From: a virus
DNA: 20,233 nucleotides
Reading direction: 5' to 3' (one strand)
UHGV virus genome: UHGV-0876955
Part shown: one piece after another, positions 14,502 to 15,606 of the stretch
How the letters are laid out: each line of letters begins with the position of its first letter
Position numbering within the stretch: the first letter of the stretch is position 1
Position numbers and translations under genes: made by a program
Notes under the pieces: model-generated
The model's database searches: none
Told to the model about the DNA's origin: nothing
Seen by the model: only the letters and a program-made list of their open reading frames with translations

Positions 14502-15606
14502 ATGTCACTCCTTTTGAATCGTGAGCATACGAACGGTCAGGTAACAAACGCATCGTATGCAAAAGTTATTGAGACGGTGCTTAAAAGCGGCGTGCAGACT
14601 GATGATCGCACAGGCACTGGTACTTTAAGCACCTGCTACGTTCCCTCTTACTACATGCTTACTGGTGGGACTGTGCCGCTTATTTCTGGAAAGGCGGTAA
14701 ATCTTAAGCCACTACTTGTCGAACTTGAGTGGTATCTGAAAGGCGCGGGCAACATCCAATTTCTCAAGGATAACGGCGTTAAGATTTGGGATGCATGGGC
14801 CGATGAGAATGGCGATTTGGGGCCGGTTTACGGTAAGCAGTGGCGTCGATGGGAAGATACCCGCATCGTGAGCCATAGTGAATATCTGAGCAAGATCGAT
14901 ACTTTCCGTGAACGCGGGTACAAAGTCGAGGGATACCTGGGCATCAGTGAAGATCGCGTAGTGCTGTCCCGTGAAATCGATCAGCTACAGCGTATTGTCG
15001 ACACACTGCGCACGAACCCTACCGATCGTCGCATCATGCTTAACGCATGGAACGTAGGCGAGCTTGAGGATATGAAACTGCCACCTTGCCACCTTTGTCT
15101 TCTCTTTGTGGAGTCGTGAGCTTGATTTTGAAACCCGTTTAACGATGGCAACTGACATTGGTCTTCAACACAGTCGCCTCGGTTATGAGTCTATCTACAC
15201 CAAGATGCTATACGATCTGGAGATGGACGGCAGTGTTACTGAAACTGAACTGGATGAACTTGGAATCCCCAAACGCATCCTCAACTCCTGCCTCGTACAG
15301 CGTAGCGTAGACACTTTTGTTGGTATGCCATTCAATATTGCTGGCTATGGCATTCTCACTCATTTTCTCGCGAAGATTACGGGTCACATGGCCGGTGCAT
15401 TTGTACATTTTGGCTTTGACGTGCATTTGTACAACAACCACATGGAAGGTGTGTGTGAGCTAATGAAACGACAGGCTCCAGAGCATTCAGATCCGGTCGT
15501 TATTTTCCCTCATGAATGGTCTGAGCTGGATGATTTCAAATGGGACGATATTCTGATTCTTGGCTATGACCCTCTACCGTGGATCAAGGTTCCAGTGGCG
15601 GTGTGA
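14502..15606 (+). CDS. thyA: Thymidylate synthase with reading frame interrupted near 15100-15119 (N part 14502-15119 frame 0, C part from ~15118 in frame +1)
   Basis: N part has DRTGTGT, WADENGDLGPVYGKQWR, NAWNVGELEDMKLPPCH (catalytic Cys); C part has CLVQRSVDTFVGMPFNIAGY, HLYNNH and C-terminal PVAV. Frame 0 stops at TGA 15117-15119. Confidence 0.85.

What the first reader, a model, noticed from the sequence alone, without database searches (positions are those of the whole stretch)
15090..15300. Thymidylate synthase broken by a frame change plus an extra ~46-codon segment just after the catalytic Cys
Frame 0 reads ...NAWNVGELEDMKLPPCHLCLLFVES and stops at 15117-15119. The rest of the enzyme (..KRILNSCLVQRSVDTFVGMPFNIAGY...) is in frame +1, which is open back to about 15091. 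Canonical enzymes, as I recall E. coli and T4, have only about 11-13 residues between PPCH and the LSCQLYQRS block; here there are about 60, so the extra material has length 3n+1. It is too short for a group I intron or an intein. Options are a sequencing indel in the pyrimidine run tttgtcttctctttgtgg, a pseudogene, a programmed +1 frameshift at the UCG-UGA-G stop context, or a bypass-type element.
Basis: seen in the sequence. Interest (0 to 1): 0.55.

Follow-up and report, generated by a model that had tools for sequence, protein, structure and literature searches.

The report
Thymidylate synthase split by one stray base
An ordinary phage-plasmid thymidylate synthase gene is split by one extra C found in no relative, most likely a 454 sequencing error, and its extra ~51 residues are a normal conserved feature of this enzyme subfamily.

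Summary
thyA runs in frame 0 from 14502 to a TGA at 15117-15119, and continues in frame +1 to 15606.

The two oddities are unrelated.

(1) Frame break. It is a single extra C at 15092/15093 (CAC-C-TTT against CAC-TTT).
- It is absent from 172 plasmid records and 202 E. coli records.
- The pattern with the extra C gives no exact match in three contig collections. The version without it is found 39 times.
- All relatives examined encode one 367-aa ThyA.
- The window looks like a poor-quality contig. Bases 1-29 are the Roche 454 B-Rapid adaptor. Two other conserved genes carry private one-base homopolymer frameshifts. There are private inversion-type junctions.
- The 512 nt after the break are identical to a relative.
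- Most likely cause: a pyrosequencing or assembly error (about 0.75). Otherwise a recent private inactivating mutation (about 0.2).
- Programmed frameshifting, bypassing, an intron or an intein are not supported.

(2) Extra segment. It is an in-frame insertion of about 51 residues at the tip of the beta-hairpin after the catalytic Cys.
- It is conserved in long-form ThyA of SSU5-like phage-plasmids and of large phages.
- It is under purifying selection.
- It is predicted with high confidence to form three helices.

Overall interest is low.

The parts
14502..15092 (+). thyA 5' part, in frame up to catalytic Cys196 (15087-15089) and His197 (15090-15092). The start is ATG here; it is GTG or TTG in several relatives, while PhiR41_1 (L001) translates with M.
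15092..15093 (+). The frame break: one extra C (CC here, a single C in every relative). Which of the two C's is the extra one cannot be decided.
   Evidence: alignment A1; 0/172 plasmid and 0/202 E. coli records carry it; exact-pattern scans 0 with it against 39 without it
15093..15119 (+). Out-of-frame tail (LCLLFVES) ending in the premature stop TGA at 15117-15119. In relatives the same bases read FVFSLWSRE.
15094..15606 (+). thyA 3' part in frame +1 (stop TGA 15604-15606). Its 512 nt are identical to NZ_CP083502.1 (L007), so there is no decay.
14856..14966 (+). Insert 1 (residues 119-155, about 34 extra residues relative to E. coli ThyA), in the small-domain region.
15121..15273 (+). Insert 2 (residues 207-257), the 'extra segment' of the finding. 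It is a predicted three-helix module (helices 209-225, 231-242, 247-253) at the tip of the beta-hairpin formed by strands 197-206 and 258-270. By sequence alignment the unaligned stretch is residues 204-260 (15112-15282).
1..29 (+). Untrimmed Roche 454 'B-Rapid' library adaptor (29/29 match to CCTATCCCCTGTGTGCCTTGAGAGACGHC). Bases 1-44 match no relative.
91..92 (+). Second private frameshift: AA here, AAA in relatives. It breaks the intein-containing recA-like gene.
18424..18429 (+). Third private frameshift: A6 here, A7 in relatives. It breaks a conserved 269-aa gene (18344..19152).

Best explanation
The window is a stretch of an SSU5-like phage-plasmid of E. coli. It carries a nucleotide-metabolism block: nrdA, nrdB, a MazG-like gene, thyA, a HAD/PNKP-like gene, a DHFR gene and an AAA kinase-like gene.

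Its thyA is the ordinary 367-codon long-form thymidylate synthase of this element family. The apparent split is caused by one extra C directly after the Cys-His codons. That C is most likely a pyrosequencing or assembly error in a poor-quality 454 contig, so the true gene is one continuous ORF.

The extra ~51 residues are unrelated to the frame break. They are an in-frame, conserved, translated insertion that the model folds into three helices at the tip of the beta-hairpin after the catalytic cysteine.

Shown: the single-base difference, that it is private to this window, the state of the contig, and the conservation, selection and predicted fold of the insert. Inferred: that the extra base is an error rather than a real mutation.
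For: Frame break:
- Five phage relatives read CAC TTT where the window reads CAC C TTT, and three are annotated with one 1104-nt thyA.
- An 86-nt query across the site gives only 85/86 matches with one gap in 172 plasmid and 202 E. coli records.
- The 33-mer with the extra C has no exact match in viral, metagenome or genome contigs. The 32-mer without it has 26 + 13.
- The truncated 205-aa product is not on record. The identical neighbouring MazG-like protein is indexed in 14,768 blocks, with a 367-aa ThyA next to it in all 5 places shown.

Contig quality:
- Window 1-29 equals the 454 B-Rapid adaptor (PMC4034615).
- Two further conserved genes are broken by private homopolymer indels: A3 to A2 at 91, absent from 104 records, and A7 to A6 at 18424, absent from 172 records.
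- Two finished relatives, 98.6% identical to each other, differ by 11 indels, all intergenic.
- There are private inversion-type junctions at 7958-7965 and about 20100-20118.
- The 512 nt after the break are identical to L007.

Insert:
- It is present in all the long-form ThyA (324-378 aa) that were aligned, including homologues of 37-42% identity on phage-like contigs.
- pN/pS against SSU5 is 0.137 for the insert and 0.096 for the rest.
- The AF2 model has pLDDT 95.2 and shows three helices in the insert.
- The core superposes on E. coli TS with TM 0.94.
- All catalytic and ligand-binding residues checked are conserved.
Against: - The extra base turns a single C into CC. That is not a long homopolymer, which is the commonest kind of 454 consensus error.
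- No reads or quality values are available, so a genuine private mutation cannot be excluded.
- The private rearrangements and three frameshifts could also describe a truly decaying plasmid copy.
Confidence: 0.75

Rival explanations
1. The extra C is a real, recent, strain-private frameshift mutation. The plasmid's thyA is then a fresh pseudogene making a 205-residue truncated protein, tolerated because the host chromosome supplies ThyA.
For: The base is in the sequence as given. The site is not a long homopolymer. The same window has lost the sbcD/sbcC region and carries two other broken genes, which could reflect a decaying element.
Against: There are no substitutions in the 512 nt downstream. 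The variant is absent from several hundred relatives and from all contig collections. The contig carries an untrimmed 454 adaptor, homopolymer-type indels and inversion-type junctions, which are more typical of artefacts.
Confidence: 0.2
2. A programmed +1 ribosomal frameshift at UCG-UGA-G (15114-15120) rejoins the two frames. The product would be a full-length enzyme with residues 198-205 changed from FVFSLWSR to LCLLFVES.
For: Skipping one base at the stop would give a protein of exactly native length. A GGAG lies just upstream of UCG-UGA.
Against: - The frame break is not conserved in any relative, and the surrounding bases are identical in relatives that read them in the other frame, so no signal has evolved for this.
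- From established rules: UCG-U offers no re-pairing in the +1 frame, unlike CUU-U in prfB.
- The GGAG abuts the codon, whereas prfB has a 3-nt spacer.
- Rfam finds nothing in 14300-15800.
Confidence: 0.02
3. The extra segment is a removable element (translational bypass gap, small intron or mini-intein), and the frame change is part of it.
Against: - In relatives the segment is in frame (3n) and conserved at the protein level down to 37% overall identity, with motifs S-R-E-L-x4-R and L-D-x3-I-P-x-R.
- It is under purifying selection and confidently folded as three helices.
- There is no Rfam hit, and no intein or endonuclease domain: PF00303 is the only Pfam family found.
- The extra base lies 28 nt upstream of the segment.
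Confidence: 0.01

Closest known systems
Thymidylate synthase of Salmonella phage SSU5 (SSU5_081, YP_006906713.1) and of E. coli SSU5-like phage-plasmids (e.g. PhiR41_1 XSB42439.1, WP_033803587.1, p09EL50 NC_018651)
   Same: Same gene in the same neighbourhood (nrdAB, MazG-like, thyA, HAD, DHFR, AAA). Nucleotide identity is 98-99.3% (78% to SSU5). After removing one C the protein is identical except for 2-7 residues, and it has the same two insertions.
   Different: Only the window has the extra C at 15092/15093, and hence a split ORF.
E. coli ThyA (264 aa; PDB 1tys, 2tsc and others)
   Same: Same fold (TM 0.94 over the E. coli chain) and about 33% identity. The catalytic Cys-His is conserved, as are the equivalents of R21, E58, W80, W83, Y94, R126/R127, R166, S167, D169, N177, H207 and Y209.
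   Different: The phage-plasmid enzyme has about 34 extra residues in the small-domain region and about 51 extra residues at the hairpin after the catalytic Cys. No solved TS covers these (best TM normalised to the query is about 0.7).
Expanded thymidylate synthases of jumbo phages (e.g. Pseudomonas phage 201phi2-1, UniProt B3FJL1; A0A1C3NFC4)
   Same: Their predicted structures cover more of the model than any solved TS does (TM normalised to the query 0.82-0.84, against 0.68). This suggests shared extra elements. Long-form ThyA with insert 2 also sits on phage-like contigs of 104 kb and 356 kb.
   Different: They are longer (457-471 aa), only 26-29% identical, and sit in a different genomic context. 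I did not check residue by residue that their extra elements match insert 2.
Lactobacillus casei-type TS with the ~50-residue small-domain insertion (from my own knowledge of the TS literature, not tested here)
   Same: Insert 1 lies at the same place in the small domain.
   Different: Insert 2 has no counterpart there.
Recoding and splicing precedents: prfB +1 frameshift, T4 gene 60 bypass, T4 td group I intron
   Same: A phage-type nucleotide-metabolism gene that appears interrupted.
   Different: None of their defining features is present. The interruption is not conserved, there is no slippery site with correct spacing, no non-coding gap and no intron RNA structure.

Membership tests
Thymidylate synthase ThyA (Pfam PF00303) | Significant match to the family profile over its whole length | tested here: met
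   The two window halves score 169.3 and 98.4 bits (cut-off 24.3) on profile positions 2-152 and 159-266. The intact relative scores 266.7 bits.
Thymidylate synthase ThyA (Pfam PF00303) | Catalytic Cys in the P-C-H motif, plus the dUMP- and folate-binding residues, including Asn (not Asp) at the E. coli N177 position | tested here: met
   C196, H197, R36, E74, W96, W99, Y110, R176, R177, R267, S268, D270, N278, H308 and Y310 are all present. Most are invariant in 52 homologues.
Thymidylate synthase ThyA (Pfam PF00303) | TS fold | tested here: met
   AF2 model with pLDDT 95.2 and pTM 0.93. Foldseek against E. coli TS gives TM 0.94 over the target, E 3.6e-31.
Thymidylate synthase ThyA (Pfam PF00303) | One uninterrupted reading frame in this window | tested here: not met
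   Stop at 15117-15119 and the rest in frame +1. The feature is met in every relative examined.
Thymidylate synthase ThyA (Pfam PF00303) | dUMP to dTMP methylation activity | not testable with these tools
   Needs an enzyme assay or complementation of a thyA mutant.
Programmed +1 ribosomal frameshift (prfB type) | Frame break conserved among homologues | tested here: not met
   0/172 plasmid and 0/202 E. coli records carry it. Contig hits are 0 with the extra C and 39 without it.
Programmed +1 ribosomal frameshift (prfB type) | P-site codon able to re-pair in the +1 frame before a poor stop, with an SD-like stimulator at about 3 nt | tested here: not met
   The sequence is GGAG-UCG-UGA-G. UCG to CGU gives no re-pairing and the spacer is 0 nt. 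This judgement rests on the established prfB rules, not on an experiment.
Translational bypass (T4 gene 60 type) | Untranslated gap between matched take-off and landing codons | tested here: not met
   The segment is in frame in relatives, conserved as protein, has pN/pS 0.137 and is folded as helices.
Group I/II intron or intein | Intron RNA structure, or intein splicing blocks or an endonuclease domain | tested here: not met
   No Rfam match at E<=1 in 14300-15800. PF00303 is the only Pfam family in the protein. As a positive contrast, the recA-like gene at 193-2319 does show Intein_splicing and LAGLIDADG_3.
Sequencing or assembly artefact (454 pyrosequencing contig) | Platform signature plus several private indels that break conserved genes | tested here: met
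   29/29 match to the 454 B-Rapid adaptor at 1-29. Three private one-base frameshifts in conserved genes, against none between two finished relatives. Private chimeric junctions.
Sequencing or assembly artefact (454 pyrosequencing contig) | Read-level evidence that the extra C is miscalled | not testable with these tools
   No reads, flowgrams or quality values are available.

The most novel reading that the evidence does not exclude
The extra C is genuine and the gene is still expressed. Occasional +1 shifting at UCG-UGA-G would yield a full-length thymidylate synthase with eight substituted residues in the strand after the catalytic Cys-His. That would be an accidental, newly arisen recoding site. 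Separately, and more plausibly, the conserved three-helix insert at the hairpin tip may be a phage-specific interaction module that no solved TS structure shows.
Probability: 0.02. Interest if true: 0.4.

Novelty: not a real feature. Interest (0 to 1): 0.06.

Why it matters
It matters mainly as a caution. A split gene next to an unusual insertion looked like possible recoding, but the two are independent. One is a private single-base indel in an error-prone 454 contig. The other is a normal trait of a widespread phage and phage-plasmid ThyA subfamily.

The only residual biological interest is that this long-form ThyA carries a constrained three-helix module of about 51 residues at the hairpin following the catalytic cysteine. 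No solved thymidylate synthase structure covers it, and its role is unstudied. Possibilities include effects on the dimer, or contacts with other dNTP-synthesis enzymes.

Tried and rejected
- A protein search with the insert alone (68 aa) returned a single candidate and said nothing about distribution. The full-length query was used instead.
- The look-up of the truncated 205-aa product found nothing on record, so the source assembly could not be identified.
- No record in the phage, plasmid or E. coli collections is identical to the window. The best is 99.3%.
- Jukes-Cantor dS against SSU5 is saturated, so raw pN/pS was reported.
- Searches (wrong frame for the HAD gene; file layout) failed and were redone.
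- My first in-silico correction removed the wrong base and gave PPCP. It was corrected.
- Transcriptional slippage was considered and rejected, because there is no long homopolymer at the site.
- An Rfam scan for an intron or frameshift element was negative.
- The promoter and terminator scan of 14300-15700 found nothing relevant inside thyA.

Full report
**1. What is in the sequence.**
- Frame 0 opens at ATG 14502. It reads a thymidylate synthase N-terminal part up to ...MKLPPCHLCLLFVES and stops at TGA 15117-15119.
- Frame +1 carries the C-terminal part (..KRILNSCLVQRSVDTFVGMPFNIAGY...PVAV) to the stop at 15604-15606.
- Frame +1 is open back to 15076, after a TGA at 15073-75.
- Both parts match Pfam PF00303, on profile positions 2-152 and 159-266.

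**2. What the element is.**
- The region is 98-99.3% identical to SSU5-like phage-plasmids of E. coli and Shigella (PhiR41_1, Cyrano, CMS-2020a, p09EL50 and several hundred plasmid records). It is 78% identical to Salmonella phage SSU5.
- In the annotated relatives the gene is one 1104-nt CDS called thymidylate synthase. It lies between a MazG-like gene and a HAD/PNKP-like gene, a DHFR gene and an AAA kinase-like gene, downstream of nrdA and nrdB.

**3. The frame break.**
- Alignment with five relatives shows a single difference responsible for it. The window reads TGC CAC C TTT where all the others read TGC CAC TTT. The extra C is at 15092/15093, directly after the Cys196-His197 codons.
- Removing it restores a 367-residue protein that differs from relatives at 2-7 residues only.
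- The extra C is private.
  - An 86-nt query across it finds only 85/86 matches with one gap in 172 plasmid records and 202 E. coli records.
  - The exact 33-mer with the extra C has no match in the viral, metagenome or genome contig collections.
  - The control 32-mer without it has 26 viral and 13 metagenome matches.
  - The truncated 205-aa product is not on record. The identical neighbouring MazG-like protein is indexed in 14,768 blocks, and all five places shown have a 367-aa ThyA beside it.

**4. Error or mutation?** Several independent signs point to a low-quality 454 contig.
- (a) Window 1-29 matches 29/29 the Roche 454 'B-Rapid' adaptor CCTATCCCCTGTGTGCCTTGAGAGACGHC as printed in PMC4034615. 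Its first 20 bases are the 454 primer B (PMC3179495). Bases 1-44 match no relative.
- (b) Two other conserved genes are broken by one-base homopolymer changes.
  - AAA to AA at 91-92, in the intein-containing recA-like gene.
  - A7 to A6 at 18424-18429, in a 269-aa gene.
  - Both are private: absent from 104 and 172 plasmid records respectively.
- (c) Further homopolymer-length differences against both relatives lie in intergenic DNA, at about 4014, 5569, 7947 and 20027, plus a lost C between two T runs at about 18224.
- (d) As a baseline, two finished relatives that are 98.6% identical differ by 11 indels, all intergenic.
- (e) The window has private inversion-type junctions.
  - Window 7958-8647 is inverted relative to relatives, and the sbcD/sbcC region is missing. 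No plasmid record spans the left-hand junction, the only one tested.
  - The last ~134 bases match another place of the same plasmids, in the opposite orientation in the one record I checked.
- (f) The 512 nt downstream of the break are identical to NZ_CP083502.1, so there is no sign of pseudogene decay.

I conclude that a sequencing or assembly error is the most likely cause (about 0.75). A genuine recent private mutation remains possible (about 0.2), because C to CC is not the classic long-homopolymer error and no reads are available.

**5. Recoding options.**
- A +1 shift at UCG-UGA-G would give a protein of native length, with FVFSLWSR replaced by LCLLFVES.
- Nothing supports it.
  - The break is absent from all relatives, and the local sequence is the same in relatives that read it in the other frame.
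  - UCG-U cannot re-pair in the +1 frame, and the GGAG abuts the codon. Both judgements rest on the established prfB rules.
  - Rfam finds nothing in 14300-15800 at E<=1.
- Bypass, intron and intein readings fail because the extra segment is part of the protein (next section).

**6. The extra segment.**
- Against E. coli ThyA the 367-aa protein aligns in three blocks: 18-118 to 3-102, 156-203 to 106-153, and 261-367 to 160-264. This leaves two insertions.
  - Insert 1: about 34 extra residues in the small-domain region.
  - Insert 2: about 51 extra residues between the strand that follows the catalytic Cys and the strand that carries R267-S268 (E. coli R166-S167).
- Insert 2 is present in every long-form ThyA (324-378 aa) aligned.
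  - These come from phage-plasmids of Escherichia, Salmonella, Klebsiella, Raoultella, Enterobacter, Providencia, Morganella and Xenorhabdus.
  - It is also present in homologues of 37-42% identity on phage-like metagenome contigs of 104 kb and 356 kb.
  - The conserved motifs are S-R-E-L-x4-R at its start and L-D-x3-I-P-x-R-x-L at its end.
- Against SSU5 its pN/pS is 0.137, close to 0.096 for the rest of the gene.
- An AlphaFold2 model built on 52 homologues (first sequence P0002, 98% identical) has pLDDT 95.2. It places three helices (209-225, 231-242, 247-253) between strands 197-206 and 258-270.
- The core superposes on E. coli TS with TM 0.94, but only 0.68 when normalised to the query. 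No solved TS covers the inserts.
- Predicted structures of jumbo-phage TS (201phi2-1 B3FJL1, A0A1C3NFC4) cover more of the model, 0.82-0.84.
- All catalytic and ligand-binding residues checked are conserved, including Asn278 at the position that sets dUMP specificity.
- The segment is thus a real, already catalogued trait of a phage ThyA subfamily whose function has not been studied.

**7. Verdict.**
- What is there is an ordinary, well-represented phage-plasmid thyA with one private extra base, most probably an artefact.
- Interest is low. The only item worth a future look is the structural role of the conserved three-helix insert.

Noticed in passing
window 1-44: The contig starts with an untrimmed Roche 454 B-Rapid library adaptor (29/29 match), followed by 15 more bases that match no relative. 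Genuine plasmid sequence starts at 45.
   Followed up: yes
window 193-2322 (frameshift at 91-92): A recA-like gene carries an intein with a LAGLIDADG endonuclease, inserted right after the Walker A motif (GPPSAGK|C). Relatives are polymorphic: NZ_CP027358 has the intein (779 aa) and NZ_CP083502 lacks it (357 aa). In the window the gene is also broken by a private AAA to AA change.
   Followed up: partly
window 18344-19152 (A-run 18424-18429): A conserved 269-aa hypothetical gene is split by a private A7 to A6 change. It has no Pfam family.
   Followed up: partly
window 7958-8647, with junctions at 7958-7965 and 8642-8647: A 690-bp piece of the sbcC-like AAA ATPase gene is inverted relative to relatives. 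The sbcD (metallophosphoesterase) gene and the rest of sbcC are missing. The junctions show 6-8 nt of microhomology, and no plasmid record spans the left-hand junction, the only one tested. This is either a chimeric assembly or a private rearrangement.
   Followed up: partly
window ~20100-20233: The last ~134 bases match a different place of the same plasmids, next to a tellurite/colicin-resistance-annotated gene (opposite orientation, about 2.2 kb away, in the one record I checked). They are joined at a short shared RBS-like sequence. This is another private junction.
   Followed up: partly
window 4005-4023 and 7938-7957: A near-identical motif, CCACAAA(A)GGAAAACACATG, containing the ribosome-binding site and the start codon, recurs in front of at least two genes. 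In both copies the A-run is one base shorter than in relatives.
   Followed up: no
window 14502: thyA starts with ATG here. Several close relatives have GTG (L002, L006, L007) and SSU5 has TTG, while PhiR41_1 (L001) translates with M. The upstream intergenic region 14351-14503 is indel-rich among relatives.
   Followed up: no
L008 (JGI Ga0495622_0000052) 6001-7065; L009 (Ga0597909_000001, 356 kb) 6001-7005: Distant long-form ThyA with the same hairpin insert sits in phage-like contigs, next to thymidylate kinase, the RNR small subunit, NAMPT, T4-type RNA ligase and DnaJ-like genes.
   Followed up: partly
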